Notes: generated from the sequence alone by a model not told the origin. A DNA stretch of 50,051 nt from Chloroflexota bacterium (GCA_022562475.1 JADFPD010000003.1:1-50051), one strand, 5' to 3'; counted from the stretch's first letter, positions 1,175-37,858 are shown. Numbers and translations: made by a program.

Positions 1175-2761
1175 TTAAACGGCGACCTCGACCGCATCCA
1201 CTGGATAGAGTTTCCGCCATGCATCGATCCCGCCCGCCAGCGCGGAGGTTTCCAGACCGTGTTCCCTGAGCTGCTGCGCCACACGGACGCTAGTTGCATC
1301 GTTGGGTCAACTACAGTAGGTGACCAACTCTTGTCCCGGCGGGCAGTCTTCAGCCCATTCGAGGGCGCCATCGGGCAGCACCCGGACCGAGCCGGGGATC
1401 CTGGTCCCGTCGTGGTTGTAGCTGGCCCTGGTCCGGACGTCCAAGACAAGAGGCGGGTCCGGTTGCAAAAGGCGGTCCGACAACTCCTGGGGCGTGAGCA
1501 TGGGCACCGCGCCCTTGTGGCTACCGAACAGGCCGGCCACCGTGCTCTCGCGCTCTTCCTCCAACGTCTCCCTGGCGGCTATCCGGCCATACCAGACACC
1601 AACGGGGGTCGCCGTGCCGCCGTGAATGGCCACCGACGCCATGACCACCACTCCCACGACGGCCAATAACAGTTCAGAGCCGGGTATCCCCGCCTGCACC
1701 ACCAGCAGGGCCAACAATAAAGAGTTGAGACCCCTTGGGCCGAACCAGCTCACGAAGGCGTGGGCTTGCCAACTCATCCGCGCCCTGGCCAAGACCACTC
1801 CTAAGACCGCCGGGCGGATGGCGAAGATCACCAACGCCGCCAGGCCCAATGTTGGCACAACATCGACCGTTCCCAAGAGGCCGGATAGCACCGCTCCGAA
1901 CAGCACGAAAGCCAATAGCATGGCCATCTCGGAGGTGACTTCGCCGTATTCCAAGAAACAATCGCAGAGAGACTGGTTTAGGATCACCACCGCCAGGCCG
2001 GCGGCGAAGGCTCCCAGGAACCCGTCGCCACCCGCGGCCGTGGCCCCGGCATAAGCGGCCAACACCAGGCCCACACCGTAGAGGGACTGGTGCTCACGCC
2101 GGATGGTCATCTTCCCGTCCATCCAACTCATGACCCACGACCCCAACCCACCGATGGCGAACCCGATGGCCGGTCCCAACAGCAGCAGTTTGACCAGGAA
2201 GACACTCCAGCCGCCGATGCCGCTTCCCTGGTCGGTGGCCACGGCGATCAGCACCAGGACCACCGGCAGCACCACCAGGTCGTTCATCCCGGCCTCGATC
2301 TTGAGCACCTGCCTCACGGACCTTGGGATGCGTTCGTCGCGCACGATATCCCTGAGGACCACGGGGTCGGTGGAGGCCAGAACGGCCCCGCCGATGAAGG
2401 CCAAGATCCAGCCGAAGTTCAGGAATAATCCAAAGGGCAGGGCGCCGACGGCGATTATCAGGCCGGTGCCCGGCCCCAATATCAGGGCCGGGACCAACCA
2501 CCTTTTGCCCAGTTCCGCCACCTGAAGTTTGACCGCGTCAAGGAACAGGACCAGGGCCAGGGTCAGGGTGGCCACGACCTCTAAGAACGGCGAATGAGGG
2601 CCGACATCCAGCACATCGAAGCCTCGGCCTCCCAGCAGAAATCCCAGACCGAGGAAGATCAACGGGAACGAGAGCGGCGACCGTTCGACCAAGCCGGACG
2701 TCAGGGCAGTCACCGTCAAGACGACGGCTATCACGCCGAAGATTAGAATGAAATCGGGCAA
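1175..2761 (-). CDS. CPA1-family cation/H+ antiporter fused to C-terminal rhodanese domain; probable selenoprotein (UGA at 1307-1309, Sec485)
   Basis: Multi-TM protein with ASTDPV, KIEAGMND and WFGPRGLNS CPA1 motifs; rhodanese LVLDVR..IPGS..VTYCS continues in frame past TGA as PNDATSVRVAQQLREHGLETSALAGGIDAWRKLYPVDAVEVAV to TAA at 1175-1177. Confidence 0.85.
1276..1290 (-). promoter_or_regulatory. Candidate bacterial SECIS hairpin (GCGUC-CGUGU-GGCGC)
   Basis: 5-bp stem (one G-U pair); loop begins 21 nt after the in-frame UGA with G-U at loop positions 2-3; same loop as at 37016-37030. Confidence 0.65.
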
Positions 2762-2806
2762 CTAGCGCCTCTGCCGGAGATTTTCTTGTTCAGCCTGACT
2801 CAGGCC

Positions 2807-4444
2807 CTAGAACTTGGAGTACTCGCCTTCGTCCTTGGTGATGAACTCCAACACCACCGCCTTGCCGGCTTCGGTTTCGGCGATGCCCCGTTTGATGGCC
2901 GGAATGATGCCGGCGGGGGCGGTGATCTTCTCGGTATAGGCGCCCATGGCCTGGGCCACCTCGGAGAATTCGCCCGACAGGCCCTTGATGTTGTACTTCT
3001 CGATCGCCACCGGGAACCGGCTGTCGCTATAGATGGACATATAGGCGTTGTTGATGATGATGGTCAGCGTGGGTATGCCGCACCGGACCGCTGTCTCCAC
3101 GTCCATTCCCACCGTGCTGAAGGCCAGGTCGCCCATGACGTTGATGCACAGCTTCTCCGGGGCGGCCAGCTTGGCGCCCATGACCAGACCCAGGCTGTAG
3201 CCCAGTTGGGTAGACTTGCCCCAGCCGATGAAGCTGCGGGGCGCGCGGGCCTCCCAGAAGGGACTCATATACTCCCTGGCGCTGCCCGACTCGTGGGTGA
3301 TTATCGTGTTGTCCAAATCGACGGTGTGCATCAGGTCCCAGATCACCCGGTAGGGGTTCATGGGCACATCGTCGGAGGTCAACTTGGGCATCCACTGGGC
3401 CAGCCAGGCCTCTTTCACCGATTTGATGTCGTCTTGCAGGGCCTGGTCCTTGGCCCGGGCGCTGCCCGCTTGGCTCTTTAGCTCATCCAGCAGTTGCCGC
3501 AGCACCAGCTTTGCGTCGCCCAGCATGGCGTACTCCATTTTGAACTCCCGCCCGATGGCGTCCTCGTCGTTGGTCAGGTGAACAATAGTCTTGCCCTGGG
3601 GTATGGGCTGGGCGAAGTTGGTCTTGGTGAAGCTGCAGCCCACGCCGAAGACCAGGTCCGATCCCTTCAGGTATTTGTTGGCCATGGCGGTGGTGCTGGG
3701 ACCGCCGGAGCCAAGGGATAGAGGATGGGTCTCGGGGAAGCCGCTCTTGCCCGGCAGGGTGGTCATCACCGGGGCCTGCAGGAACTCGGCGATCTCGATC
3801 AATTCGGGGGTCGCTTCGGCGTACAGCACGCCCTGTCCGGCATGGATGATGGGGCGGTCGGCCGCCAGCAGGACCTTGACGGCGCGGCTGACGTCGGCGG
3901 GGTCGGCCTGCTGCAACACCACCCGGGGCGGCTCGTAGTTAAAGAGTTCTTCGGGCAACTCTGCGGTGGCCACGTCCGCCGGTATCTCCAGCAGGACCGG
4001 TCCCGGCCGCCCGGTGCGCAGCTTGGTGAAGGCCCGGCGCATCAGGTCGGGGATGCGCTCCACGATGTTCATCTCTTCCGACCACTTGGTGATGGTCTCG
4101 TAGCTGCGGGTGGGATAGAAGTTGGGATGGACGCCCCGCTTATCCCGGGGCATGCCGGCGGGCAGCAGCAGGATGGGGACGGACTCGGAAAAGGCCTGGG
4201 CCACGCCGCCGAAGCCGTTCTCCGCTCCTGGGCCGTTCTGCATCATGAATACGCCCATGCGCTTGCCGTTGGTGACTCTGGAGTAGCCGTCCACCATGTG
4301 GATGCCGGTGCATTCCTGCCGGAACACGATGGGGCGGATCCCGGCGATGGCCGCCGCTTCCAAGAGGGGCTGGTAGGGGACGCAGCCGATGAACTCCACG
4401 CCCTCAATACGCAGGATATTGGCGATGGCCGTGACTCCGTCCAT
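2807..4444 (-). CDS. Thiamine pyrophosphate-dependent enzyme (acetolactate synthase large subunit-like)
   Basis: RQE...HMVDGYSR, NGPG, GRPGPVLLEIPAD and GDLAF...INN TPP-binding motif. Confidence 0.9.
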   Translation of the reverse strand: MDGVTAIANILRIEGVEFIGCVPYQPLLEAAAIAGIRPIVFRQECTGIHMVDGYSRVTNGKRMGVFMMQNGPGAENGFGGVAQAFSESVPILLLPAGMPRDKRGVHPNFYPTRSYETITKWSEEMNIVERIPDLMRRAFTKLRTGRPGPVLLEIPADVATAELPEELFNYEPPRVVLQQADPADVSRAVKVLLAADRPIIHAGQGVLYAEATPELIEIAEFLQAPVMTTLPGKSGFPETHPLSLGSGGPSTTAMANKYLKGSDLVFGVGCSFTKTNFAQPIPQGKTIVHLTNDEDAIGREFKMEYAMLGDAKLVLRQLLDELKSQAGSARAKDQALQDDIKSVKEAWLAQWMPKLTSDDVPMNPYRVIWDLMHTVDLDNTIITHESGSAREYMSPFWEARAPRSFIGWGKSTQLGYSLGLVMGAKLAAPEKLCINVMGDLAFSTVGMDVETAVRCGIPTLTIIINNAYMSIYSDSRFPVAIEKYNIKGLSGEFSEVAQAMGAYTEKITAPAGIIPAIKRGIAETEAGKAVVLEFITKDEGEYSKF

Positions 4445-4514
4445 GTTTTAACTCCTCATCTGATGCGCGGGGCGTGGGCTAGCTGTGGCCCACGTGGGGC
4501 CGCGATTTCGGGCC

Positions 4515-4543
4515 AGTGTAGATTGCACGCCTAAAGGTGTCAA
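4515..4543 (-). promoter_or_regulatory. Sigma70-type promoter of the TPP enzyme gene
   Basis: TTGACA-N17-TACACT on minus strand about 70 nt upstream of the ATG. Confidence 0.65.
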
Positions 4544-4580
4544 CCGAGCCGGTAGAGCCGGGTTATGAGGGAACTGGACG

Positions 4581-5024
4581 CTAGACCTCGGGCCGAGAGC
4601 TCCAGGGGACGAATCTCGCCGGAACGATCTTGATCACCGGGCTTTGGTCGAGGTCCATCCCCTGATACTGGGAATACTTTTCACGGAGCATGGCGATGGC
4701 CCGGGCCCATTCCTCACCCGACTCCAAGAGCCCGGCATCCCCCGACACCAGCAGATACTGGAGGCGTGACCAGTCCTCTTCATAGTGGTCCACGACCAAG
4801 GACACCTGTGGGTTGGCCAAGATGTTCCGCACCCGGCGCAGCTGCCTAAGGGGCGTGGACTTGGGTTTGGCGTCCAACACCGAGTAGATGGACTCGCCAT
4901 CGAAGACGTAGCAAACGGGAATCACGTGGGGTTGGCCCTTGGCGTCGGCGGTGGCCAGGTGGCCGGTGCGCGCGGAACGGAGAAACCGGTCTTGGGCGGG
5001 GGAGAGTTTGCCGGCAGGGTTCAT
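4581..5024 (-). CDS. PPOX-class (pyridoxamine 5'-phosphate oxidase-like) putative F420-dependent oxidoreductase, Rv0121-like
   Basis: GHLATAD..GQPHVIPVCY, DAKPKS..LRRVRNILANPQVSLVVDHYEEDWSRL. Confidence 0.85.
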   Translation of the reverse strand: MNPAGKLSPAQDRFLRSARTGHLATADAKGQPHVIPVCYVFDGESIYSVLDAKPKSTPLRQLRRVRNILANPQVSLVVDHYEEDWSRLQYLLVSGDAGLLESGEEWARAIAMLREKYSQYQGMDLDQSPVIKIVPARFVPWSSRPEV

Positions 5025-5029
5025 CGAGG

Positions 5030-5953
5030 CTAGGATTCGCTGAGGAAGCCCCGGGGGTCTTCGTCGAATTCCAGTTCCTCCAACTCGATGCGGGCGGCTG
5101 CTTCAAGATTGGCGTCGCCGTCCTTGACCAAGGTCTTGAGCACCTTCTTGGCCAACGGCCCGCCGATCTTGCCCAGAGCGCCGATCCCAGCCAACTGGAC
5201 CTCTGAATCGTCATCTTCCAGCAGCAGAATCAGATGGGGGACCGCGTCTTCTTCGCCCAACTCACCGCAGGCGTGGGCCGTCTCGTAGCGAATCGTGGGC
5301 TCTTCATTCTGAAGTTCCTGAAGCAAGATGGGAAGCCAACCCACCTCACCGGTGCGGCCCATGGCAAAGATGGAACTGGCGCGAAAATCCGGGTCCAGGC
5401 TTTCGTAGGCCAGTGTGATGTGCTGGTTGATCTCCATGGTGTTGAAGGGCGCCAGGGCCTCCATGCAACGCCGCCGGACGTCCAGGGGTTCCTCTTCGTC
5501 CTCAAGCACCTGCATCAGATTGTCGTGTATCAACTCGCCGTCCCTGGCCAGCAGCTTGCCCTCTTGGACCAACAATGGAAATCTCCCCAGGGCGCTGGCG
5601 GCAGCCGACCGCACTTCAGAGCCTTTGTCCGACCTCAAAATCTCCACCAGCCCAGGGATCACCGAACGGTCTTCGTGCTCCCAGAGACCGTCCATGGCGA
5701 CCTGCAAAAGGGGCTCGTCATCGCCTGTAAGGCACAATTTGTAGATCGCCGTGAAGTCCAATTCGGGGTTGTCTTCAGCCAGTTCGACCATGGTCGAAGC
5801 GATGCTACGCTGCCGTTCGATGGGGAGAGGATGCCAAGCCGCGGCGAAGAGCTCAAGCTCCTCCGGAGAGAGGTCTGAGATCTCGTAGAAGTCCACGGCG
5901 GAGATACGGCCCGCCGGGTCTGAAACGTTCGCTAGAAAGAATTCGAAAGACAT
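5030..5953 (-). CDS. HEAT/PBS-lyase repeat protein
   Basis: Repeated units such as EVRSAAASALG, IRYETAHACGELG, EVQLAGIGALGKIG. Confidence 0.85.
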   Translation of the reverse strand: MSFEFFLANVSDPAGRISAVDFYEISDLSPEELELFAAAWHPLPIERQRSIASTMVELAEDNPELDFTAIYKLCLTGDDEPLLQVAMDGLWEHEDRSVIPGLVEILRSDKGSEVRSAAASALGRFPLLVQEGKLLARDGELIHDNLMQVLEDEEEPLDVRRRCMEALAPFNTMEINQHITLAYESLDPDFRASSIFAMGRTGEVGWLPILLQELQNEEPTIRYETAHACGELGEEDAVPHLILLLEDDDSEVQLAGIGALGKIGGPLAKKVLKTLVKDGDANLEAAARIELEELEFDEDPRGFLSES

Positions 5954-6114
5954 CTATCTTCGGTTCCTATCCTGAGTTATTGCGTCCGTTTCAGGTCCTG
6001 GCCTCGGCTTTAGGTTCGGCTTTTAAATACCCTGCCTAGTCACGTTTTCCAAGTATATCATAGGAAAACCGGGCCAAACCCAGACCTGTGCCTGGACGGT
6101 TTCAATGATGGACT

Positions 6115-7683
6115 TCAGCCTTCCCTGAGCCGCCGCAGCGCCGCCGGTATCTCCGGCAGAAGGTCCGATGCCGCGATGCCGGTATTCCCCAGCCGGGATA
6201 CGATTCCACGGCCGGCCTCTCCGTGCACGTACACCCCACATGAAGCGGCGACGGCTGGGGGCAGGCCCTGGGCCATCAACCCGCCGATGATCCCGCTTAG
6301 GACGTCTCCGGTCCCGCCGGTGGCCATTCCCGGATTGGCGAACGAGGCCACGCCGACCATGCCGTTCGGCTGGCCGATGACCGTGTTGGCGCCCTTCAAC
6401 ACCAGGGTCACGTTCCATCTGGCGGCATATTCTCGCGCCACCGCCACGCGGTCCGCCTGAATCTCCGCGGCCGAAAGTCCGGTCAGGGTGGCCATCTCCC
6501 CCGGGTGAGGGGTGAGTGTCATGGGCCCGCGGCGGCGCTCCGGCCAATCCTCGATACGGGCCAGGTTGTTCAGACCGTCAGCATCTATTAGGGCGGGCAA
6601 GCCCGACAGATCCGAAGCCCTGGAATCCACATCGTTGAACAATAGGTCCTCAACAAACTTAACTGTGCCTTCGGACAGACCCATTCCGCAGCCTACCACC
6701 ATATTCGTATAGCGCCGAGGCTCCTCGTGGAGCCTTTGGGCGGCCTCAGCGGCCACACGGCCTTCTCCGTCATCCAACAGTGGCAGGTGGATGGGTTCGG
6801 TGGACTTGGTGGCCGCGATGGGATAGACGCTCTCCGGGGTGGCCAGGGTGGTCAGTCCGGCCCCGGCCCGAACCGACGCCTGGGACACCAGATAGGCCGC
6901 GCCCACGTAGTTCCGCGACCCGGCCACCACCAGAACGTGGCCGAAGGTCCCCTTGTGGGAGTCCAGAGGCCGCTTGGGCAGATGCTCGGCCACCCAACGC
7001 CGCTCCAACAATTCCAGTTGGATGTCCGTTTCTTCTTTGAGGCCGGGCGGCACTCCGATGTCCAGCACCCGCAGCTCCCCGGCGTGCTCCGTGCCTGGGA
7101 AGTTAAGCAGCCCCACCTTGGGGTATCCGAGGGCGAAGGTAACGTCGCAGGGCACCCCCAAGGGGTCGACCTCGCCGGTATCAGCATTCAGGCCGGTGGG
7201 CAGGTCCAGAGCCAGCAGTTTGGGTGGCGATGACGCTGACCGGGCGCGAGCCAAACACTGCATGGTCTGCTTAACGGGGCCTTCCAGAGGACGGGCCCGC
7301 CCGGTGCCCAATACCGCATCTATCACCAAGGCGGACCGGGACAACAAGTGCTCCAACCCGCTGGGCGAAGTGACGTCAATCACGCGGACGCCGTATTCCA
7401 GCGCCAAGGCCATCTTGGGGTCGGGATCAGGGCGGCCGCCCACCACGAAGCAGACGACTTCGGCGCCCCAGCGCCGCAGGTGCCTGGCAGCCACCAGCCC
7501 GTCGGCGCCGTTGTTCCCGGGGCCGACCAGCACCATGACCCGCACACCGGCTGCGCCGGCCAGGTCCCGCGCTGCCTGAGCCACGGCCAGGCCGGCGTTC
7601 TCCATCAGGACATCCGTGCTGACGCCGTCCTTCTCCGAAGCCTGCTCGATGGCCCTCATCTGGGCGGTGGTAACGATCTTCAT
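6115..7683 (-). CDS. nnr: Bifunctional NAD(P)H-hydrate epimerase/dehydratase
   Basis: LMENAG, GPGNNGADG, DLPTG, HKGTFG, LTPHPGEM and ATGGTGDVLSG motifs; start taken at MKIVTTAQMR. Confidence 0.95.
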   Translation of the reverse strand: MKIVTTAQMRAIEQASEKDGVSTDVLMENAGLAVAQAARDLAGAAGVRVMVLVGPGNNGADGLVAARHLRRWGAEVVCFVVGGRPDPDPKMALALEYGVRVIDVTSPSGLEHLLSRSALVIDAVLGTGRARPLEGPVKQTMQCLARARSASSPPKLLALDLPTGLNADTGEVDPLGVPCDVTFALGYPKVGLLNFPGTEHAGELRVLDIGVPPGLKEETDIQLELLERRWVAEHLPKRPLDSHKGTFGHVLVVAGSRNYVGAAYLVSQASVRAGAGLTTLATPESVYPIAATKSTEPIHLPLLDDGEGRVAAEAAQRLHEEPRRYTNMVVGCGMGLSEGTVKFVEDLLFNDVDSRASDLSGLPALIDADGLNNLARIEDWPERRRGPMTLTPHPGEMATLTGLSAAEIQADRVAVAREYAARWNVTLVLKGANTVIGQPNGMVGVASFANPGMATGGTGDVLSGIIGGLMAQGLPPAVAASCGVYVHGEAGRGIVSRLGNTGIAASDLLPEIPAALRRLREG

Positions 7684-8010
7684 CTTAGTACCGAGATTTA
7701 GAAATAGCCTTTGCGGTGATCCGTGCGTCCTCGCTTGAACTTCCCCTCCGGCATACATTTTGCCTTCCGGGATTGCCATTTTGTCGGTCGGCGATCGGTT
7801 ATATCGACTACTTAATGTTGCATCATACCAATTCTATGCAGCAAACAGACTCTAGTCTGTACTTCCGTAGTTAATTAACTTCACCGGCAAATTCACCCTC
7901 TCCGTTGGCGTAGCGCGTTCGATCAAAGGCGCATAGGTGGGCAAAGATATGCGTATTATTCGGTCCCCGGCCTTTCGCCGCGATCCTTTCAGGAAGGGTT
8001 GTATCGCCGA

Positions 8011-9129
8011 TCAACGGATGACGGTCAATTGGTTTGCCGCCGACTCCGGCAGCCAAATCTCTCCGAGTCTGCCAAGGATCTGCCTGACATTTCCAGGGTT
8101 GCCCGGCAGGCCAAACACTTCGAATTCCTCCCTTTGCGGGTCGAAGCTTACGACTGCGTTTCCACCAAAATCGCTGAGCCACACCACGTCGCCGGCGTCC
8201 ACATAGACCGCATAGGCACGGGGTTCCGGGCCTGGCAATTTCCACTCCCGCCATTCGCCGGTGGAAGGGTCGAAAACAGCCACCTGGCCCGCGTTCCATT
8301 CGCTTACCCAGATCCTTCCTTGGGAATCCGGCCAGACCCGTCTGGCGCCCTGGTTTGGCGTTGGCGGCTCAAGAACGGTTACTTCGCCTGACTCAATGTC
8401 GATGCGTCCCACATAGCTGCCGGCCAGAGACGCAAAATATACGTCTCCGTTGGCGCCGGTCGTTATTCCGTATGGTCCTCGGCCACGCGGAGCGTTGAAG
8501 ATAGCCATCTGGCGAGACACCGGGTCCAACCGGCCATATACGCCGTTCTGCCCCGTGAACCAAAGCACGCCATCCTTGTCAAAGGTGGCGGTGTTCAAAT
8601 TCGCATTCGGATGCTGTGGTGGCAACGGGAAGACGTCCACCATGAGATCGTCCGGGTCGACGCGCACGATGGCATTCAGTCCGCCATCGGTGATCCACGG
8701 GGCGCCGTCAGGCCCAACGATCACCCCATGCGGTCGAGACCCGGCGCCCAGCGGTATACGTCGAGTCGCACCGGTCTCAGGATCGAGCCATCCAAGTTCG
8801 CCCAACCCTTGTGCGGTGTACCACACGCCGCCGTCAATGGCAGGCGCAACATCGTGAGGCCGGGAGCCCGCCGGGAGCGGGAACACTTGTAATGTCTTTT
8901 CTGAGGGGGTCCCAATTCCGGAAACCGGTTCGGTAGATTTGATCGAGGAATCAGCCGGAGATGTAGCTGAGGGACTCGTGATGTCTGTGGGCGCCGGCGC
9001 AAAAGTTGGATCAAATGGCGTCGCTTGCCCACCACATCCGATCACCCCGAGGGTAATCAGAATTCCTAGAAATATTGATGCCCTCCGTCCTGGAATGCCG
9101 CTTCGATCAATGGTTTTTTCATATCTCAT
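8011..9129 (-). CDS. Vgb (virginiamycin B lyase)-like beta-propeller lipoprotein
   Basis: Lipobox VIG-C, Ser/Thr/Pro linker, repeats PHDVAPA.DGGVWYT / PHGVIVGPDGAPWIT / PYGITTGANGDVYFA. Confidence 0.8.
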   Translation of the reverse strand: MRYEKTIDRSGIPGRRASIFLGILITLGVIGCGGQATPFDPTFAPAPTDITSPSATSPADSSIKSTEPVSGIGTPSEKTLQVFPLPAGSRPHDVAPAIDGGVWYTAQGLGELGWLDPETGATRRIPLGAGSRPHGVIVGPDGAPWITDGGLNAIVRVDPDDLMVDVFPLPPQHPNANLNTATFDKDGVLWFTGQNGVYGRLDPVSRQMAIFNAPRGRGPYGITTGANGDVYFASLAGSYVGRIDIESGEVTVLEPPTPNQGARRVWPDSQGRIWVSEWNAGQVAVFDPSTGEWREWKLPGPEPRAYAVYVDAGDVVWLSDFGGNAVVSFDPQREEFEVFGLPGNPGNVRQILGRLGEIWLPESAANQLTVIR

Positions 9130-9174
9130 ATCATGGGATTAATGCACAAACCAATGAAGTCCTTCCTGGCCGCA

Positions 9175-9543
9175 TTAATCTTCACGCTGGGCCACCACGA
9201 AGGCCACGGCGTATTCACGGGAGTGGGAGATGCTCAGGGATATCTCGCCCACCTTCAATCGCTCCGCCCGCTTCTCGGCCCGGCCGTGGAGTTTCACGCT
9301 GGGAGCGCCGCTTTCAGCACGCACGACCTCGATGTCCTTCCAACTGACGCCGCGGACGCCGGTGCCCAACGCCTTCATAATCGCCTCTTTGGCGGCGAAC
9401 CGGCCGGCGAGGTTTGGCGCCCGTCCACGGCAGTAGGCAATCTCATCAGGGGTGAAGACGCGGTCCAAGAACCGCTGGCCGTAGCGGTCCAACGTCTGTT
9501 GGATGCGGGGAATCTCGATGATGTCGACGCCTGTTGTAAGCAT
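9175..9543 (-). CDS. acpS: Holo-[acyl-carrier-protein] synthase
   Basis: GVDIIEI.RI, AGRFAAKEA..KALGTG and SISHSREYAVA motifs. Confidence 0.96.
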   Translation of the reverse strand: MLTTGVDIIEIPRIQQTLDRYGQRFLDRVFTPDEIAYCRGRAPNLAGRFAAKEAIMKALGTGVRGVSWKDIEVVRAESGAPSVKLHGRAEKRAERLKVGEISLSISHSREYAVAFVVAQRED

Positions 9544-9574
9544 CGTCCGCCCGTGATCTGATCGGGTAGGTGAT

Positions 9575-10468: not shown

Positions 10469-10561
10469 TGACTGCCGGCGGACCTGACGTGCCGGCAGAG
10501 TCTGATTTCGTTCGTGAAGTTCGTTGCCGATAACCCCGGAACGCCCCCACGGAGACACTAA

Positions 10562-10590: not shown

Positions 10591-10624
10591 ACCAGCCAGG
10601 CTCAATCTTGCCTCTGGCCGCAGC

Positions 10625-12266: not shown

Positions 12267-12268
12267 AG

Positions 12269-28665: not shown

Positions 28666-28667
28666 CT

Positions 28668-29093: not shown

Positions 29094-29097
29094 TCCG

Positions 29098-30765: not shown

Positions 30766-31058
30766 TGAGAGGGTTTACTCCTTGGCTGCTTTACTTGACT
30801 GATTTTCCGAGCCAAGTCACACTCTCAGGCCCAAGGTCACGGTCAATCTAATATGGCGGCACTAACGCACGTTAAGCGCTAACGTGTTACGAACTTAGTC
30901 GTTGCCTGATTCAGTATAACAGCTAATCCGCCATGCGGGCATGCCCCAAGGGCCGGCTCACCGGTCCTTTTGCGATATTCGCCCGGCCGGTGCACCCCTC
31001 GGACCCGATTGAGTGTTAATATCATTCCCGGCGACAACACTCCTCCGGAGGCAAGGCA

Positions 31059-32090
31059 TTGGCATACTACATGTACGTATCCATCCAAGAAGAAGACCGG
31101 ATTGCCATCTTCAGCATGACCCCAAAAACGGGTAAGTTGAAGCATCAAGGCGATGCGGAACTCAAGGGCCGGCCGGCGCCCCTGGCAATAGACCCGGACC
31201 GGAAATATCTTTTCGCCGGCCGCCGCGAGGCTGACGATTTTGGGATGACCAGCTTTAATATCGACCGCAAGACCGGCGGCCTTTCGCCCATCGGGTCGAT
31301 CCCCTTAAAGGGGGACCCGGTCCATATCTCCACCGATAAAACCGGCAAATTCCTTTTGTCCGCCTATTACTACCAGAAGACCGCCGCGGTGCACAGCATC
31401 GGCGATGACGGCGCACTGGCCGACCCTCCCGTGGTCTGGAGGGAGACCGCAATCGGCGCCCACTATATCCAGACCGACCCGGCCAACCGTTACGCCTACG
31501 TCCCCCACATCGCTGATGGAGCCCTGTCAGGCGCCAACGCCATATACCAGTTCCGGTTCAACGCCGATACCGGATTGATCACCCCACTCTCTCCGACGCG
31601 GACCAACCCCAGACAGCCGGACGGCCCGCGCCATATCTGTTTCCATCCAAGCATGGATAAAGTTTACTCGTCCAATGAGCAGGGCAACAGCGTAACCCTC
31701 TACGATTTCGACTCGGACAAAGGCAACCTCTATCCCATTCAGACGGTGTCCACACTGCCCAGCGGGTACGACGGCAAGAACTCCTGCTCCCAGATCCAGA
31801 TCACGCCGAACGGGAAATTCCTGTACGCGCCCAACCGGGGCCACGACAGCATCGCCGGCTTCCGGGTCAGCCCAGACAACGGCTACCTCTCGCTCATCGC
31901 CCAGACGCCCACCGAGGCAGTCCCACGGGCATTCAGCATCGACCTCCAGGGAAATTTCCTCTACGTTGCCGGGTTGGAGACCGGGAAGCTGGCCTCTTAC
32001 CGCATCGACCAGGACACCGGAGAATTGGAAGCCGGAGATGTCTACGATGTGGGCAAAGGCCCCATGTGGGTGCTGATAACCGAGTTTTAG
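31059..32090 (+). CDS. Lactonase family beta-propeller (6-phosphogluconolactonase/cycloisomerase-2-like)
   Basis: GAHYIQTDP, GPRHICFHP, ITPNGKFLYAPNRGHDSI and PRAFSID. Confidence 0.9.
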   Translation: MAYYMYVSIQEEDRIAIFSMTPKTGKLKHQGDAELKGRPAPLAIDPDRKYLFAGRREADDFGMTSFNIDRKTGGLSPIGSIPLKGDPVHISTDKTGKFLLSAYYYQKTAAVHSIGDDGALADPPVVWRETAIGAHYIQTDPANRYAYVPHIADGALSGANAIYQFRFNADTGLITPLSPTRTNPRQPDGPRHICFHPSMDKVYSSNEQGNSVTLYDFDSDKGNLYPIQTVSTLPSGYDGKNSCSQIQITPNGKFLYAPNRGHDSIAGFRVSPDNGYLSLIAQTPTEAVPRAFSIDLQGNFLYVAGLETGKLASYRIDQDTGELEAGDVYDVGKGPMWVLITEF

Positions 32091-32172
32091 GGACTGTCAT
32101 CCCGGACAATATCGGTACGCGGGTCTACCCAAATAATTGGCCAACTTGCCCCGGGTTTTTGAAGGGTGATTA

Positions 32173-33141
32173 ATGAAATTCGGGTTCATGTTGCCTTCCC
32201 GCGGCCCCCTGTCACGGCCGGAAAACCTTTCGGTCATCGCCAAGCGAGGTGAAGAGCTGGGCTACGGATTCATGATGTTCCCAGACCACATCGTGATGCC
32301 CCGGGACGTCTCTTCGAAGTACCCTTATTCCCAGTCCGGGGTCTTTCCGGGGACCGACACCGGAGAGACCATGGAACAACTGACCACGCTGGCATTCCTG
32401 GCCGGCCAGACCAACTCCATCAGACTGGTCACCAGCGTGATGGTCGTTCCCCACCGCAGCCCCGTTGCCACCGCAAAATCGTTGGCTACCCTGGATATTC
32501 TCTCCCAGGGCCGGTTGACGGTGGGAGTGGGGACCGGTTGGCTGGAAGAGGAATTTCAAGCCCTGGAGACTAAACCATTCGCCGAACGGGGAGCGGTAAC
32601 CGACGAATATATCCAGGTGTTCAAAGAGCTTTGGACCAGCGACTCTCCCCAGTTCGAAGGACAGTATTGCCGGTTCTCCAACATCGATTTCCAGCCCAAA
32701 CCGGTCCAGAAACCCCACCCGCCCATCTGGGTCGGCGGCGAAGGCCCGCGGGCCATCCGCCGGGCCGCCCGCTTCGGCGACGGGTGGCAGCCACTGGGGA
32801 ACAACAGCCGGTATCCCACCGCCACGGCGGAAGAGCTTGCCGTGGGTCTGCAGAGGCTGGACCCCGAATTGGAACGGGTGGGCCGTCCCGCCGGGTCCCT
32901 GGAAGTGACCAGCCGGATGTTGGGCTACGATCTGAGGAAGAACGGAGGGACATCAAGCAGCGGCCGCTCGGCCTTCGCCGGAACAGCGGACGAGATCGCA
33001 TCAGACATACGCCGCTTTCAAGACCTGGGGGTCGCCAACCTGGTTCCCAGCTTCCACGGCGTCGCCCAACTGGCGGACAGCCGGGACGCCATGCTGAAGG
33101 ACTTGGAAGACTTCGCCAATGAGGTCATGCCCAAGATTTAA
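32173..33141 (+). CDS. LLM-class putative F420-dependent oxidoreductase (Rv2161c-like)
   Basis: FPDHIVMP, ATLDILSQGRLTVGVGTGWLEEEF and PKPVQKPHPPIWVGG. Confidence 0.9.
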   Translation: MKFGFMLPSRGPLSRPENLSVIAKRGEELGYGFMMFPDHIVMPRDVSSKYPYSQSGVFPGTDTGETMEQLTTLAFLAGQTNSIRLVTSVMVVPHRSPVATAKSLATLDILSQGRLTVGVGTGWLEEEFQALETKPFAERGAVTDEYIQVFKELWTSDSPQFEGQYCRFSNIDFQPKPVQKPHPPIWVGGEGPRAIRRAARFGDGWQPLGNNSRYPTATAEELAVGLQRLDPELERVGRPAGSLEVTSRMLGYDLRKNGGTSSSGRSAFAGTADEIASDIRRFQDLGVANLVPSFHGVAQLADSRDAMLKDLEDFANEVMPKI

Positions 33142-33285
33142 AAGACCATCCAGAAATTAATGGCGCCGCCTCCACGGCCGGCGTGCGAGCTAGAGTCGGC
33201 CGTCAATGAATGAAAGCGAAACGCGCATCGACCGGTTGGTAAGTGAGATTCCCTGCCGTTGCTATAATCAATCGGCATAGCGCTG

Positions 33286-34728
33286 GTGGTGGCTTTCCGG
33301 CAGCTGCGAGGAAAAATCTTGAATTTCCCGATTCGGAGCGGACCCCTAAAGTTAAGTCTGCTCATTCTCCTTGGGGCGCTGGCCGCCGTAGCCTGCGGCG
33401 AGACAGACGCGCTTTTGACTCAGACGCCCGTGGTAACTCCCATCCCGGCAACTACTATTTCGGCGACTCCCGTTCCTGCGACCTCTGTACCACCCACTTC
33501 CATCCCATCGGCTACCGTCCCGCGGCCTTCTTCTGGCGGCGGGCAGGCAACCCAAGTCCCAACGCCGGAAGCCACTCCCACCGCCGCTCCCCAACCGACT
33601 CCGTCCATCACGCCGAGGCCGACACGCTCCGATACGCCGGTGCCAACGCCCACCGTTACGCGCGCGCCGGCGCCGACCTTTACACCAGAGCCGACGCCCA
33701 CCAACACACCGCAACCCATTCCAACCGACACGCCGGAGCCTACGATCACGCCGACTCCAGCGCCCACTCCGACACCGACGCCCGTGCCGGGTCCGACGCC
33801 GACACCCAATCAATTGGTTTGGACCTATCAGATCAGCGAAGCAGGCGCCAAGGTCAACCATGTGGACATCAGCGCTAATGGCTCGCGCTTGGTGGCGGGA
33901 ACATCAACCGGCAAGGTACTTTTCTTAACTGACCAGGGTCTCTTGATCTGGACCTTCGACGGCGCCGGCGCCGCCCCGGCAGGAGTCACTCGACGCAGCG
34001 TCACCGGCTTGGCAATAGACCTGGACGGAAACCGCATCCTAGCCGGCTTTACCGATGACCAAGGAACCGAGACTGAGGCCGGCGCTTTGTACATGCTCGA
34101 TAATCAGCCGTTGACATTATGGTCCGTCTCCATCGGAGGGCCAATCAGCGGAGTGGACCTTTCCGATGATGGAAGCCGCATGGTCGCCGGTTCTTCCGAC
34201 CGGAAAGTGTACTCGTTGAACGTGGATGGAGCCATCAGGTGGACTGTTGAAACTCCGGACATCGCCGGACAGCCAGTGAACGTGATTGCCGTGTCGGCCG
34301 AGGGCTCACGAGCGGTGGCCGGGGACCAGGCAGGCCAGTTCTACCTGCTCAACGCCGACGGCGCCAAGATCTGGACCTTCGATGCGGACGGACCCATAAA
34401 CGACGTTGCAGTTTCCACATCGGGTGACCGAGCTGCGGCCGGAACGGCAAGCGGCAGTGTGTATATATTGAACAACCAAGGCGCAGTCATTCGCAAAATA
34501 TCCCATCCCGAAACATCTATCCTGGCGTTGGCCATCAATTCCAGCGGCTCCCAGTTGGTTGCCGGGACCGCGGATGGAAGAGTATTTGCCTTCGACGGCC
34601 AAGGTGTCATGTCGTGGGAAGTGTTTTTGGGTGGGTCCGTAACCAGCGTGGCCGTGAACTCCACCGGAAGCAGAATTGTCGCTGCCTCCGGGACTACCGT
34701 TTATCTACTTTCAGACCAAGCTCCATAG
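33286..34728 (+). CDS. Lipoprotein with long Pro/Thr linker and WD40/PQQ-like beta-propeller
   Basis: Lipobox AVA-C, about 140-aa PT-rich stretch, about seven repeats of type VAVS..G.R..AG..DG.VY.L...G...W. Confidence 0.8.
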   Translation: MVAFRQLRGKILNFPIRSGPLKLSLLILLGALAAVACGETDALLTQTPVVTPIPATTISATPVPATSVPPTSIPSATVPRPSSGGGQATQVPTPEATPTAAPQPTPSITPRPTRSDTPVPTPTVTRAPAPTFTPEPTPTNTPQPIPTDTPEPTITPTPAPTPTPTPVPGPTPTPNQLVWTYQISEAGAKVNHVDISANGSRLVAGTSTGKVLFLTDQGLLIWTFDGAGAAPAGVTRRSVTGLAIDLDGNRILAGFTDDQGTETEAGALYMLDNQPLTLWSVSIGGPISGVDLSDDGSRMVAGSSDRKVYSLNVDGAIRWTVETPDIAGQPVNVIAVSAEGSRAVAGDQAGQFYLLNADGAKIWTFDADGPINDVAVSTSGDRAAAGTASGSVYILNNQGAVIRKISHPETSILALAINSSGSQLVAGTADGRVFAFDGQGVMSWEVFLGGSVTSVAVNSTGSRIVAASGTTVYLLSDQAP

Positions 34729-34834
34729 CCGGTAGACCGGCCGGCGCTGCTTTCCTAGATAAACGAATCAATGCCTCGGCGGATTGATTTTATCATCCGT
34801 AGGCATAAGACGATTGAGAAACCCGCTAAAAAGG

Positions 34835-34864
34835 TTGACATCATGAATTGGGATAACTTATATT
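34835..34864 (+). promoter_or_regulatory. Sigma70-type promoter of the TRAP receptor gene
   Basis: TTGACA-N18-TATATT. Confidence 0.55.
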
Positions 34865-34954
34865 CTGATTCACTCCCCGCAATGAAGAGGGTTGGGCGAT
34901 CGATGAGCAGGCACAACGCCAGGGGGAGAAGATAAATCTGGAGGAGGCAACTCG

Positions 34955-36115
34955 ATGACAAAGTTGCGGAAGTTCACATTTCCAATCTTGATCGGCATAT
35001 TGTTGCTGGTCTTGACGGCGTGTGGCGGAGACGACGAAAGCGAGACCGCTAGCCAGAGCACTGGAAGCGGCGTCAGCCCCACCACGGCCGCGGCCGCGTC
35101 CACGGGCGCCGGCGGCCTAGTCTCTCAGGGTCTCAGCTTCAAGTTCCAATACGCTTGTATCAATAGGACCCTTGACCCCTGCGAGCTACTCGCATCCCCA
35201 GGCGGAATGGTAGAACGGATCAAAGAGCGGACCAACGGACAGGTGGAGATAGTGATTTCTTCCTTCCCTGAGTTGGGTCTGGCCGGTCCCGACACCCTGC
35301 GTTTGGTCGAGGACGGCACTCTTGGAATGGTAGAGATCTATAGCGGCTACATCGGAGGCGACCTTCCCATCGTCGACGTCGCCAACCTTTGGGGCGTGAT
35401 TCCGGACACTTCCACCAACTGGAAGACCATCGAAGCCGTCCAAGGACCGATCCACAAAATCATCGAAGACCGGTCCAACGGCATAGTATTGGCCGAAAGC
35501 TATTACGGCAACAACTACTACTACACCAGCAAGCCCCTGCGGACCCCGAGCGATCTTGAAGGGATGAAGATTCGCAGTCACAGCACGGTGCTGGGCGACC
35601 TCATCGACGGCATGGGCGCCAATGCCCAGTTCGTGGCCTTCTCCGAGGTCTACACGGCGCTGGAACGCGGCATCCTTGACGCGGCCGTCACCTGCGGGCC
35701 TTGCGGCGCCGGTCTGCGCTGGTTTGAGGTAGCCGATTACCTAAACGGCCCCATCATCTCCATCGGTGTCACCTATATCACGATCAACAAGGACCGTTGG
35801 GAGGAGATTCCCGCCGACCTTCAGGCAATCATGAAGGAAGAGGCCCTGATCCACCAAAAGGAGAACCGCAGATTGGTGGAAGCTGTCTGGGACCCGAAAG
35901 GGATAACGGACAACGTCGAGGGCGGCATGGAATTCGTCGAGTTCTCCCAAGAGCTTAAAGACGCTCTCAGGCAGGCTTCGATCGATGTGGTGATTCCCAA
36001 CTGGGTGAACCGCAACGGCGGACCTGGCTCTGAAGCCGTGACGATGTTCAACGACTTAGTCGGCCCGATCATCGGCGTCACCATTGACTCCAACGGCAAA
36101 GCGATATCCAACTAG
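34955..36115 (+). CDS. dctP: TRAP transporter solute-binding lipoprotein (DctP family)
   Basis: Lipobox LTA-C; IKERTNGQVEI, DLEGMKIR, FSEVYTALERGILDA and WEEIPADLQAI. Confidence 0.88.
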   Translation: MTKLRKFTFPILIGILLLVLTACGGDDESETASQSTGSGVSPTTAAAASTGAGGLVSQGLSFKFQYACINRTLDPCELLASPGGMVERIKERTNGQVEIVISSFPELGLAGPDTLRLVEDGTLGMVEIYSGYIGGDLPIVDVANLWGVIPDTSTNWKTIEAVQGPIHKIIEDRSNGIVLAESYYGNNYYYTSKPLRTPSDLEGMKIRSHSTVLGDLIDGMGANAQFVAFSEVYTALERGILDAAVTCGPCGAGLRWFEVADYLNGPIISIGVTYITINKDRWEEIPADLQAIMKEEALIHQKENRRLVEAVWDPKGITDNVEGGMEFVEFSQELKDALRQASIDVVIPNWVNRNGGPGSEAVTMFNDLVGPIIGVTIDSNGKAISN

Positions 36116-36193
36116 AAATCAGGCGAAACTAATATAGACGCGCAGCGCGGACCTTCTTTACGTCGGGCTTAGTTGCGTTTCGTGGAATCTACA

Positions 36194-36242
36194 GGGGCAT
36201 CACTGTTGGGTTTGAACTTGATAAACCCAACAGCGGTGCCCC
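36194..36242. terminator. Long hairpin / bidirectional terminator between convergent genes
   Basis: GGGGCATCACTGTTGGGTTT-N9-AAACCCAACAGCGGTGCCCC, 20-bp near-perfect stem. Confidence 0.65.
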
Positions 36243-36289
36243 CTTGATTTTTAGACAGTCGTCGCTACGGGCCCCGTGAATCCGGACGG

Positions 36290-37858
36290 TCATTCCTGTC
36301 CGTAGATTCCGGTTGCGTTGTTAAAGGTGTACCAGCCGAACCAGTAGGCGATCTGGCTAGGCAGCCGGTCCAGCCTATGGGAGGGGTTGTTGACATTGAC
36401 CAGCGCATCCTCCTCCATTCGCCACTCCTCTCCCCCTTGGTCGGCTACGAACACCTCTGCCGCATCCCGGCCGCCGAGGCTGATCGTGGTGAACCGCTGG
36501 CCGTCCCTCTGGTATGCGCGCGAGCCGGCCCTGTCTCCGGGAGTGATCACAACCAAGGCCCTGCCGCCCAGGATGTCGTTCAAGACGGGCTGCTGATGTA
36601 AGGTGTCCACGGGGTATGCCTTGGCCTCACCGTTAACGATTAGCCCTAATATTTGCGACTTTTCAGGCAGCCGGCCGCTTTTGTCCCAAACCGGGAATGA
36701 GCTCTCAGGTTGCTGCCGCAGCCCGTAATAGATCGATTGGGGGTCCCATTCCGGAACGTAGAGACCGGCGGGATACAGTCCGGTGTCGGCGTCCAGAACA
36801 GTGGTGTCGGGATGCGTGGCGAGCCAGTCTCCCCAGGTGGTCAAAAGGACCGGCAGCACCTCCAGCTTGATCCCGCTATCCACCAAAGTCCCCACGACGG
36901 GCTCGCCGGTAAACTGACGCCACAACGTCTCGGTGGCCCGGTCGTACATCAACTTGTTTGAGCGGTAGAGCAGACCCGAGGTGCCGAACTCCAGGACTTC
37001 GCCGTTTATCTTGGTGGAATACACGATTCCGGAGCCGCAGAGGGTTCAATAAGCCAGGGCGAAAGGCACGCCCCCCACCACGTCATTGGCCATCTCGTGG
37101 GCGTTGAGGATGCGTAGCGGGTAGGCCCGGTGCTCCCCGTTGAAGGAAACACCGAAGACCCGGTCTTCGTCAAAGAGGTAACCGGCTTCCCGCGGGGTGA
37201 TCACCGGTGGGTTGATCAGATCGGGAATGCCGTCTCTGGGCACGCCGCCCCACACTATCTCCTCCACCCGTATGCGCGAGGCCACGCCGCTGTGTATGAA
37301 TTTCGACTGCTCAGGGTCAACCATGCGGTTGAACAGAAGGCCCTTGAAGCCGTGGTATCCCTGAGGTCCCTGGATCTCGGAATGTTTTCCAACCCACCTG
37401 ACCCACCAGTCCCAAAACTGGGCCGAGCCTTTGAGTTCGCCGGGTGCGGCTCCGCTGAGGTTGAACAACGCGCGAATGATCGTATTGCGGTTGTCCTCAC
37501 CCAATAGGCCCGAAAAGCGCAGGTAATCCACCAGCACCGGGATGTAGGACGGGTCGCCTCTGTCCACCATGGCCTGCACGCCGGAGTCGCCGTCTCCGCG
37601 CGCCAACTCCAAGAATGGGTTGAGCAGGGCTATTGGACTTTCGGGCGATTGGGCAGCCATCGACCCGGCGCGCGCCGCCGGTGGTGGGTCCGGTAACTCA
37701 GGAGAAGGCGAGACGGGCGGCGGCGCGGTATCGGCGGTGGATGGGGTAGATTCGGACGGAGTCGCCGCAGGCGCAATTTCCGGCGTTCCCGCAGCGCCAC
37801 AACCGGCCAAGGCGACAGAAAACAGGGCGATTATTGCCCACCGGCGCCACGCCTTCAA
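36290..37858 (-). CDS. DUF3179-domain lipoprotein, probable selenoprotein (UGA at 37046-37048, UxxC motif, Sec271)
   Basis: ORF-track pieces 37046..37891 and 36290..37024 are in the same frame and join as GGVPRDGIP...RAYPLRILNAHEMAND...ALAY-U-TLCGSGIVY...FGTSGLLYRSNKLMYDRATETLWRQ; lipobox LAG-C; TTG start after GGAGG. Confidence 0.88.
37016..37030 (-). promoter_or_regulatory. Candidate bacterial SECIS hairpin (GGAAU-CGUGU-AUUCC)
   Basis: Perfect 5-bp stem; loop begins 20 nt after the in-frame UGA; loop identical to that at 1276-1290. Confidence 0.7.

What the first reader, a model, noticed from the sequence alone, without database searches (positions are those of the whole stretch)
1276..37030. 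Two unrelated UGA-read-through genes share the same SECIS-like hairpin loop (CGUGU)
Seen: after UGA 1307 comes 16 nt then GCGUC-CGUGU-GGCGC; after UGA 37046 comes 15 nt then GGAAU-CGUGU-AUUCC. The stems differ but both pair, the loops are identical, and the loop sits in different codon phases (cgt-gt versus c-gtg-t), so the match is not explained by protein sequence. Established: bacterial SECIS elements lie just 3' of the UGA and have a G, often GU, near the start of the apical loop that SelB reads. Inference: this is the lineage's SECIS consensus and could be used to recover its selenoproteome.
Basis: partly seen in the sequence, partly recalled or inferred. Interest (0 to 1): 0.75.

Follow-up and report, generated by a model that had tools for sequence, protein, structure and literature searches.

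The report
Two ordinary selenocysteine hairpins, same loop
Both in-frame TGA codons are real selenocysteine codons followed by small conserved RNA hairpins of the standard bacterial type, and their identical CGUGU loop is one variant among many in this genome, not the lineage's signature.

Summary
On the minus strand, TGA 1309-1307 is followed by 16 nt and then GCGUC-CGUGU-GGCGC. TGA 37048-37046 is followed by 15 nt and then GGAAU-CGUGU-AUUCC.

Both genes are selenoprotein genes of catalogued families. One is a Na+/H+ exchanger fused to a CxU rhodanese; the other is a DUF3179 lipoprotein with UxxC. The genome is a SAR202-type Dehalococcoidia MAG with selA, selB, selD and tRNA-Sec.

Both hairpins are conserved in orthologs:
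- DUF3179: the string CGTGT sits at the same offset in 89 of 94 Sec forms and in 0 of 15 Cys forms. Synonymous sites are frozen and the stem shows compensatory changes.
- Rhodanese: the loop is CGUGU, CGUGC or CGGGU in 19 of 19 Sec forms.

The inference that CGUGU is the lineage consensus fails. Only 3 of 44 Sec sites in this genome carry it, and two of those are paralogs. selD has a GUC triloop. The common form is a 5-9 bp stem with a G(U/G)N loop, as in the published bacterial SECIS model, which CGUGU also fits.

Identical loops occur in 26 of 827 cross-family pairs. The scan has reported DUF3179 Sec genes and membrane-rhodanese Sec fusions before, on other DNA.

The parts
1175..2761 (-). 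Gene 1: CPA1-type Na+/H+ exchanger with a C-terminal rhodanese domain. Read through TGA it gives 528 aa, with the motif T-Y-C-S-U in the rhodanese active-site loop.
   Evidence: Translation. Pfam PF00999 (residues 17-389) and PF00581 (423-517, spanning U485). NCBIfam NF041203 'rhodanese_LYCAU (seleno)protein' scores 72.1 bits, below its cut-off of 115. The ORF start was not determined; 2761 is the first TTG of the open frame.
1307..1309 (-). Sec codon (UGA) of gene 1.
   Evidence: The aligned codon is TGA in 19 of 21 distinct ortholog rows, TGT in one and TGG in one.
1276..1290 (-). SECIS hairpin of gene 1: GCGUC-CGUGU-GGCGC, loop at 1281-1285, 16 nt after the UGA.
   Evidence: Of 21 ortholog rows, 98.1% of stem cells are paired, against 19-62% when the partner is slid. 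Loops among the 19 TGA rows: CGUGU 12, CGUGC 6, CGGGU 1.
36290..37891 (-). Gene 2: DUF3179 protein, 533 aa when read through, motif A-Y-U-T-L-C. The N-terminus looks like a lipoprotein signal (LAGC); that label is my reading of the sequence and was not tested.
   Evidence: Translation. PF11376 scores 249.5 bits over residues 219-527, spanning U282.
37046..37048 (-). Sec codon (UGA) of gene 2.
   Evidence: TGA at the aligned position in 30 of 30 loci from relatives and in 64 of 79 loci from genome contigs; the other 15 have TGC.
37016..37030 (-). SECIS hairpin of gene 2: GGAAU-CGUGU-AUUCC, loop at 37021-37025, 15 nt after the UGA.
   Evidence: Covariation on 83 distinct ortholog rows is 0.180 against a shuffled mean of 0.079, reached by 0 of 500 shuffles. 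Third-codon-position conservation is 0.87-1.00 inside the hairpin and 0.36-0.65 in most flanking codons.

Best explanation
These are two independent, ordinary bacterial SECIS elements. Each lies in the coding sequence just 3' of a selenocysteine UGA, in a gene of a known selenoprotein family.

Mechanism, inferred from the established bacterial pathway: SelB carrying Sec-tRNA(Sec) binds the small apical hairpin about 20 nt downstream while the UGA is in the ribosomal A site, so Sec is inserted instead of termination.

The shared CGUGU loop is best read as the genome's commonest apical core, GUG, flanked by a non-pairing C and U. It is one instance of the published loop pattern N1-G-[G/U]-N-N2. 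Each family has kept its own version by purifying selection on the RNA. The identity between the two families is a coincidence within a narrow motif space. It is neither a lineage-wide consensus nor common descent.
For: Sec machinery is present: selB 356.9 bits, selA 559.2 bits and selD 375.6 bits with 1 in-frame TGA, and one tRNA-SeC.

Protein domains span both TGAs. Cys forms exist at the aligned site: 15 TGC forms of DUF3179 and 1 TGT form of gene 1.

DUF3179 hairpin:
- The hairpin rule is met in 93 of 94 Sec-form loci and 0 of 15 Cys-form loci. The string CGTGT sits at the same offset in 89/94 versus 0/15.
- Synonymous third positions inside the hairpin are 87-100% conserved, against 36-65% in most flanking codons, on 86 unique sequences.
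- Compensatory pairs: 18-34 is UA 39 / CG 23 / GC 3 / AU 1; 21-31 is AU 72 / CG 6 / GU 5.
- Informative variants: L110 reads CCGGAAUA-GUC-UAUUCCGG, where the C and U flanks are replaced by an A-U pair, giving a triloop. A GVxYDA subfamily has GGCGUC(G/A)-UGUA-(C/U)GACGCC at the same place.

Gene 1 hairpin: kept 16 nt after the UGA in Sec forms across the class at 36-56% identity over the 60 residues before the Sec codon. The synonymous U of the Arg codon is U in 18 and G in 1 of 19.

Genome-wide: 36 of 43 called loops fit the published pattern, and the GUG core is the most frequent at 13 of 43. That pattern and the spacing of 16-37 nt are given in passages of PMC13188914; here the spacing is 21 and 20 nt.
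Against: No experiment was done: SelB binding and read-through are inferred.

Both hairpins are thermodynamically weak. They fold at -4.9 and -2.0 kcal/mol, the regions fold no better than shuffles, and for the 42-nt stretch of gene 1 the minimum-energy fold is a competing hairpin with loop AACUA. The window's DUF3179 copy misses the model's energy criterion of <= -7.5 kcal/mol if that is applied to the 41-nt stretch, which folds at -4.5.

In gene 1 the stem shows only one-sided changes (U-G to C-G) among Sec forms. The two double-sided changes sit in the single Cys-form row.

In DUF3179, loop positions C1 and G4 are synonymous yet 85 of 86 invariant. That is more than the 'G then U' rule demands, and it leaves room for a more specific reading of the loop.

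Relatives are not independent, and the two ortholog sets overlap.
Confidence: 0.85

Rival explanations
1. CGUGU (C-GUG-Y) is a specially favoured SelB-binding apex in this lineage. It was fixed convergently in two families because SelB of SAR202 reads more than the G-U dinucleotide.
For: The loop is frozen in both families, including at synonymous positions: C1 and G4 are 85 of 86 invariant in DUF3179, and the third base of the Arg codon is U in 18 of 19 Sec forms of gene 1. A CGTGT-loop hairpin follows 3 of 43 Sec sites, against 0/438, 0/1137 and 1/5405 controls. GUG is the commonest loop core in the genome, 13 of 43.
Against: 41 of 44 Sec sites, including selD, use other loops, mostly triloops on longer stems. 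DUF3179 paralogs and subfamilies work with UGUAU, GGUU (manual reading; the finder called another register), GUC and UGUA loops. Gene 1 orthologs tolerate CGUGC and CGGGU. ATC and GTG may simply be preferred codons; codon bias was not tested separately.
Confidence: 0.1
2. The loop identity reflects common descent or transfer of a SECIS cassette between the two genes.
For: Only the identical 5-nt loop and the similar spacing (21 and 20 nt from the UGA to the loop).
Against: The stems are unrelated in sequence. The loop lies in different codon phases, and the surrounding codons encode unrelated, family-conserved peptides: SVRVA versus GIVYS. Each hairpin is conserved with its own protein family over class-level divergence.
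Confidence: 0.02
3. The TGAs are true stops or pseudogene lesions, and the hairpins are chance or protein-driven palindromes.
For: The hairpins are short and weak. One Cys-form ortholog of gene 1 (L051) also forms a 5-bp hairpin at the same place, and one ortholog has TGG there.
Against: TGA is conserved with an open, homologous downstream frame in 94 DUF3179 loci and in 19 gene-1 rows. Pfam domains span the TGA. Full Sec machinery is present. Synonymous constraint is confined to the hairpin. The hairpin rule is met in 0 of 15 Cys forms of DUF3179.
Confidence: 0.03

Closest known systems
Bacterial SECIS consensus model (bSECISearch model, as restated in the 2026 review PMC13188914; I read passages only, and did not read the original 2005 paper)
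   Same: The element lies in the coding region directly after the Sec-UGA. Both have a 5-nt apical loop (allowed 3-9), a 5-bp stem (allowed 4-16), G at loop position 2 followed by U (pattern N1(0-1)G[G|U]NN2(0-1)N(0-2)), and 21 or 20 nt between the UGA and the loop (allowed 16-37).
   Different: [quoted passage not shown] The window's DUF3179 hairpin is weaker than the model's energy limit of -7.5 kcal/mol: -2.0 bare and -4.5 for the 41-nt stretch.
DUF3179 domain-containing selenoprotein family (PF11376, motif UxxC/T; listed in PMC9312934 and PMC13188914, passages read)
   Same: PF11376 scores 249.5 bits and spans the Sec site. The motif is U-T-L-C.
   Different: Nothing of note. It is a long form with an N-terminal extension and a probable lipoprotein signal. 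The scan has reported this family repeatedly on other DNA.
Rhodanese-like selenoprotein 'form 3', CxU motif (NCBIfam NF041203 rhodanese_LYCAU; listed in PMC13188914)
   Same: A rhodanese domain with C-x-U in the active-site loop (T-Y-C-S-U here, L-Y-C-A-U in the family name). NF041203 is the best rhodanese-specific NCBIfam match.
   Different: It scores 72.1 bits against a cut-off of 115, so it is not a member by NCBI's threshold. The domain is fused to the C-terminus of a CPA1 Na+/H+ exchanger. The words 'antiporter' and 'PF00999' do not occur in the main text of the review. Earlier notes of this scan describe analogous DedA-rhodanese CxU fusions in other phyla.
E. coli fdhF SECIS (recalled from memory, no call)
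   Same: An apical hairpin about 20 nt after the UGA, with a G-U dinucleotide in the loop that SelB contacts.
   Different: The E. coli element is a longer, roughly 40-nt stem-loop with a bulged U. The hairpins here are 15-nt minimal hairpins with no evident lower helix.

Membership tests
Bacterial SECIS element (bSECIS model) | Lies immediately 3' of an in-frame UGA inside a coding region whose downstream frame stays open and homologous | tested here: met
   (frames continue for 43 and 251 codons). Pfam domains span both TGAs.
Bacterial SECIS element (bSECIS model) | Apical loop of 3-9 nt on an upper stem of 4-16 bp | tested here: met
   5-nt loops on 5-bp stems. Orthologs extend the DUF3179 stem to 6-8 bp.
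Bacterial SECIS element (bSECIS model) | G in one of the first two loop positions, usually followed by G or U | tested here: met
   C-G-U-G-U in both. In orthologs G2 is invariant and position 3 is U, or G in one case.
Bacterial SECIS element (bSECIS model) | 16-37 nt between the UGA and the apical loop | tested here: met
   21 nt in gene 1 and 20 nt in gene 2 (spacer 16 or 15 plus a 5-nt arm).
Bacterial SECIS element (bSECIS model) | Minimum free energy <= -7.5 kcal/mol | tested here: inconclusive
   Gene 1: -9.6 for the 42-nt stretch, but through a competing fold; the bare hairpin is -4.9. Gene 2: -4.5 for 41 nt and -2.0 bare. I do not know over which stretch the model computes the energy.
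Bacterial SECIS element (bSECIS model) | The genome encodes SelA, SelB, SelD and tRNA-Sec | tested here: met
Bacterial SECIS element (bSECIS model) | Structure conserved in Sec-form orthologs and absent from Cys forms | tested here: met
   DUF3179: 93/94 versus 0/15, with covariation reached by 0 of 500 shuffles. Gene 1: 98.1% of cells paired, but the single Cys form also pairs.
Bacterial SECIS element (bSECIS model) | Binds SelB and directs Sec insertion | not testable with these tools
   Needs a binding assay or a read-through reporter.
DUF3179 selenoprotein family (PF11376, UxxC/T) | PF11376 domain above the gathering score, with U at the first position of the UxxC/T motif | tested here: met
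   249.5 bits against a cut-off of 27, residues 219-527; U282-T-L-C285.
Rhodanese-like selenoprotein form 3 (NF041203, CxU) | Score above the curated NCBIfam cut-off | tested here: not met
   72.1 bits against a cut-off of 115.
Rhodanese-like selenoprotein form 3 (NF041203, CxU) | CxU motif in the rhodanese active-site loop | tested here: met
   Y-C-S-U at residues 482-485; PF00581 covers 423-517.
   3 of 44 sites, two of them paralogs. selD has a GUC triloop.

The most novel reading that the evidence does not exclude
The C-GUG-Y pentaloop, a GUG core closed by a pyrimidine-pyrimidine mismatch on a very short and weak stem, could be a distinct SelB-tuned apex class in SAR202-type Dehalococcoidia. 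In that reading the factor reads four or five loop bases, not only G-U. That would explain why synonymous loop positions are frozen over class-level divergence, and why two unrelated families converged on the same five bases despite hairpins too weak for the standard energy criterion.
Probability: 0.1. Interest if true: 0.35.

Novelty: new member of a known kind. Interest (0 to 1): 0.2.

Why it matters
The main value is for annotation. Gene callers split or truncate these genes at TGA, and this genome holds more than 40 such genes.

The test shows that a descriptor built on the eye-catching CGUGU loop would find only 3 of 44 Sec sites. The general rule (5-9 bp stem, G(U/G)N at the loop start, about 17-25 nt after the UGA) marks 34 of 43 sites but needs frame or homology evidence to be specific: it gave 210 hits among 1324 coding-like in-frame TGAs.

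The work also documents, with covariation and synonymous-site constraint, that a 15-nt hairpin of only -2 kcal/mol can be a strongly conserved SECIS. That matters for energy cut-offs in SECIS search tools.

Tried and rejected
1. Folding energy as evidence. Dropped: the regions fold no better than shuffles (z +0.28 and +1.11), and for gene 1 the 42-nt minimum-energy fold is a competing hairpin.

2. It gave 7 hits. Three are real (the two in the window plus the C152 paralog). Four lie in short frames with <=79 codons upstream and <=31 downstream. It is not usable to recover the selenoproteome.

3. A generic hairpin rule as a stand-alone predictor. It hit 210 of 1324 coding-like in-frame TGAs, of which only 34 are curated sites. 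Specificity is low, although a handful of the extra hits look like further selenoprotein genes.

4. The paralog-based (U/C-aligned) search within the genome produced many wrong-frame artefacts: 173 queries had a U or C partner. I therefore used it only together with a best-frame filter (128 candidates) and Pfam. The curated list of 43 was picked from these by eye on peptide motifs and paralogy, not on hairpins, but the downstream DNA was printed beside the peptides, so the choice was not strictly blind.

5. The first version of the six-frame database script timed out and was rewritten.

6. No covariance model was built. The hairpins share too little sequence, and the spacer and stem lengths vary.

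7. Earlier-findings look-up by sequence for gene 1 found nothing.

8. Common descent of the two hairpins was considered and rejected: unrelated stems and different codon phases.


Full report
**What is in the sequence.** Both features lie on the minus strand.

- Gene 1 (window 2761..1175) reads through TGA 1309..1307. After 16 nt comes GCGUC (1290-1286), CGUGU (1285-1281) and GGCGC (1280-1276).
- Gene 2 (37891..36290) reads through TGA 37048..37046. After 15 nt comes GGAAU (37030-37026), CGUGU (37025-37021) and AUUCC (37020-37016).
- The loop is in phase CGU-GU(G) (Arg-Val) in gene 1 and (AU)C-GUG-U(AU) (Ile-Val-Tyr) in gene 2.

**What the genes are.**

- Gene 1 is a Na+/H+ exchanger (PF00999, residues 17-389) with a C-terminal rhodanese domain (PF00581, 423-517). 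The domain contains the TGA, in the motif Y-C-S-U. Its best rhodanese-specific NCBIfam match is NF041203 'rhodanese_LYCAU, rhodanese-related (seleno)protein', at 72.1 bits and below the cut-off of 115.
- Gene 2 is a DUF3179 protein (PF11376, 249.5 bits, residues 219-527, spanning U282) with the motif U-T-L-C.
- Both families are on published lists of prokaryotic selenoproteins: DUF3179 with UxxC/T, and rhodanese 'form 3' NF041203 with CxU. I read passages of PMC13188914 and PMC9312934.
- The scan has already reported DUF3179 Sec genes at least eight times on other genomes. It has also reported membrane-protein-rhodanese CxU fusions several times.

**The genome.** The window is a whole contig (C99) of a 2.96-Mb, 166-contig assembly that is 78% complete with 59.3% G+C. 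It encodes selB (356.9 bits), selA (559.2 bits), selD (375.6 bits, itself with one in-frame TGA) and one tRNA-SeC. The closest public records to gene 2 are titled Chloroflexota or Dehalococcoidia MAGs, one of them 'SAR202'.

**A test set of Sec sites.** I needed other selenoprotein genes of the same genome.

- I scored every in-frame TGA by codon usage on both sides and by U/C-aligned paralogs within the genome.
- From these I curated 43 sites in about 13 families, with selD as a 44th.
- The choice was by peptide motif, coding score and paralogy, not by hairpin. The downstream DNA was printed beside the peptides, so the choice was not strictly blind.
- Of 38 sites fetched as loci, 34 have a Pfam domain that spans the U. 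One more is spanned by TIGR04483 PrdB.
- Three remain unconfirmed. One is a PrdB/GrdB-like paralog whose Pfam match ends three residues before the U. The other two are cupredoxin genes whose TGA lies three residues past the domain.
- The two window genes, three DUF3179 paralogs and selD are also spanned.
- In all, 41 of 44 sites have family support.

**What the SECIS elements of this genome look like.** A simple finder for perfect stems called a hairpin of at least 4 bp at 42 of the 43 sites.

- The loop starts 19-28 nt from the U of UGA, most often at 20.
- Loops: GUG 7; GUA, GUU, GGC and CGUGU 3 each; CGUGGC, GGU and GGA 2 each; 17 singletons.
- selD has AGGACCUG-GUC-CAGGUCCU.
- 36 of 43 called loops fit the published pattern N1(0-1)G[G|U]NN2(0-1)N(0-2). 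GUG is the commonest core, 13 of 43.

Controls:

| Rule | Sec sites | TGA stops | TAA/TAG stops | In-frame Cys codons |
|---|---|---|---|---|
| Stem >=5 bp, loop 3-5 nt, G in first two places, loop start 19-28 | 34 of 43 | 34 of 438 | 102 of 1137 | 575 of 5405 |
| CGUGU-loop hairpin | 3 of 43 | 0 of 438 | 0 of 1137 | 1 of 5405 |

The control codons come from ORFs of at least 300 aa. Some of those ORFs may be spurious in a genome of this G+C content.

So there is a clear SECIS signal in this genome, but it is the generic one. CGUGU occurs at 3 of 44 sites: the two in the window and a DUF3179 paralog on C152.

**Are the two hairpins real? Comparative evidence for DUF3179.**

- Among 60 relatives, 49 of 61 genomes (G000 included) have a match. 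All 30 fetched loci have TGA at the aligned position and contain the hairpin. My finder printed [CGTGT] for 29; for L026 it preferred an alternative, but the same 15-mer is there.
- In the species-representative collection, 64 of 79 loci have TGA, all titled Chloroflexota, Chloroflexi or Dehalococcoidia. The other 15 have TGC; they come mostly from other phyla, with a few Chloroflexota lineages.
- The hairpin rule is met in 93 of 94 Sec forms and 0 of 15 Cys forms. CGTGT is at the same offset in 89 of 94 and 0 of 15.
- The two sets overlap and relatives are not independent. There are 83-86 distinct sequences.
- On 86 distinct sequences, the third codon positions inside the hairpin are 87-100% conserved (GGA, ATC, GTG, TAT, TCC). 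Ten of the twelve flanking third positions are 36-65% conserved; the Cys and Asn codons are 91% and 83%.
- On 83 distinct rows the covariation score is 0.180 against a shuffled mean of 0.079, reached by 0 of 500 shuffles. Pair 18-34 is UA 39, CG 23, GC 3, AU 1. Pair 21-31 is AU 72, CG 6, GU 5.
- Variants are instructive. L110 has CCGGAAUA-GUC-UAUUCCGG: the C and U that flank GUG are replaced by a pairing A and U, so the pentaloop becomes a triloop. L030 has the compensated stem CGGGCAU/AUGUCCG. A GVxYDA subfamily has GGCGUC(G/A)-UGUA-(C/U)GACGCC at the same place.
- The genome's own paralogs use CGGGCAU-UGUAU-AUGCCCG and, by manual reading of the sequence, a GGUU loop.

This supports reading CGUGU as 'GUG with unpaired flanks'.

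**Comparative evidence for gene 1.**

- Orthologs were found in 15 of 61 relatives and in 9 of 301 genomes sampled over the class.
- Of 21 distinct rows, 19 have TGA, one TGT and one TGG.
- All 19 Sec rows carry the hairpin position 16 nt after the UGA, with stems GCGUC, GCGCU or GCGCC against GGCGC. Two rows have one mismatch and one row has a gap.
- Loops: CGUGU 12, CGUGC 6, CGGGU 1.
- 98.1% of stem cells pair, against 19-62% with slid partners.
- Among Sec forms the stem changes are one-sided only (U-G to C-G). The support here is therefore conservation, including of synonymous sites, and not covariation.

**Energy.** The hairpins are weak: -4.9 and -2.0 kcal/mol. The stretches from the UGA fold no better than shuffles, and for gene 1 a competing hairpin wins in the 42-nt fold. 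That competitor is not kept in the more distant orthologs (sequences). Energy therefore says nothing for the elements. The window's DUF3179 hairpin would probably fail the -7.5 kcal/mol criterion of the published model.

**How surprising is the shared loop?** Among all cross-family pairs of Sec sites in this genome, 26 of 827 (3.1%) have identical loops. Common descent is excluded by the unrelated stems and different codon phases. The best reading is coincidence within a narrow motif space, with each family conserving its own version.

What this does not fully explain is the near-invariance of the synonymous loop positions C1 and G4 in DUF3179 (85 of 86 each). Codon preference for ATC and GTG may contribute, and I did not test it separately. 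I therefore keep a 10% rival in which SelB of this lineage reads more of the loop.

**Verdict.** These are ordinary members of known kinds. Gene 1's antiporter-rhodanese architecture is not mentioned in the review's main text, which makes it a new member and not a new kind.

Noticed in passing
Whole genome G000 (contigs C1-C166); sites listed: Very large selenoproteome for a 78%-complete, 2.96-Mb SAR202-type MAG: 41 Sec sites with family support, plus further candidates. Counts: 7 UGSC, 7-8 AhpD/CMD-like (CxxU), 4 DUF3179, 4 rhodanese, about 10 Prx/Trx/deiodinase-like, 3 DsbA-like, 2 arsenite-methyltransferase-like, 2-3 PrdB/GrdB-like, and selD. The 2026 review gives 57 and 63 genes as the largest bacterial selenoproteomes and says the richest organisms are mostly anaerobes. 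'Chloroflex' and 'Dehalococc' do not occur in its main text. Searches for SAR202 plus selenocysteine found 3 papers, none on this topic by title.
   Followed up: partly
G000:C12:6322-7254 (+) = L176, U at residue 96: A periplasmic binding protein (PF01497, residues 8-264 spanning the U; motif A-I-C-E-V-U-A-I-S) has an in-frame TGA. It has a strong hairpin, UCUCGGCA-GGU-UGCCGAGG, and a Cys paralog on C30. 'Periplasmic binding' and PF01497 do not occur in the review's main text, so this may be an unlisted selenoprotein family.
   Followed up: partly
G000:C45:1089-2507 and 2348-3601 (-) = L175, L174: Two tandem paralogous cupredoxin or amicyanin-like genes end their domain three residues before a TGA. 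Both continue in frame with a similar short tail (PIDPAGRLANLL / PINPVGPLADLL), and their hairpins are poor. This could be a C-terminal Sec extension, or true stops with conserved downstream DNA. It is unresolved.
   Followed up: partly
L051 (G039:C18), ortholog of gene 1: The only Cys-form (TGT) ortholog still forms a perfect 5-bp hairpin at the same place, GUGCU-AGAGC-AGCAC, through two double-sided changes relative to the Sec forms. It may be a relic of a recent Sec-to-Cys switch, or chance in an A/T-ending codon context. The same genome keeps the Sec form of DUF3179 (L041).
   Followed up: no
L053/L060 (G054:C7), ortholog of gene 1: TGG (Trp) stands at the Sec position while the hairpin GCGUC-CGUGC-GGCGC is intact. 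This may be a recent point change or an assembly variant.
   Followed up: no
G000:C118:18973-20280 (-) = L177, U at residue 249: An MFS transporter (PF07690; NF049980 over residues 12-407) has an in-frame TGA where a paralog has Cys, but no convincing SECIS-type hairpin. It could be a pseudogene, an assembly error or an atypical SECIS.
   Followed up: no
Further candidate Sec sites, strand-oriented script coordinates: C34(-)20525, C128(-)3549, C101(-)15626, C12(+)6176, C161(+)20297, C111(+)1282, C63(+)12186: These extra in-frame TGAs have coding-like flanks and good G-start hairpins. Examples: an AhpD-like C-H-Y-U with CACGCAGA-GUU-UCUGCGUG and five U-aligned paralogs, and a UxxC peptide I-W-R-Q-R-S-U-P-V-C. 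They were not checked against protein families.
   Followed up: no
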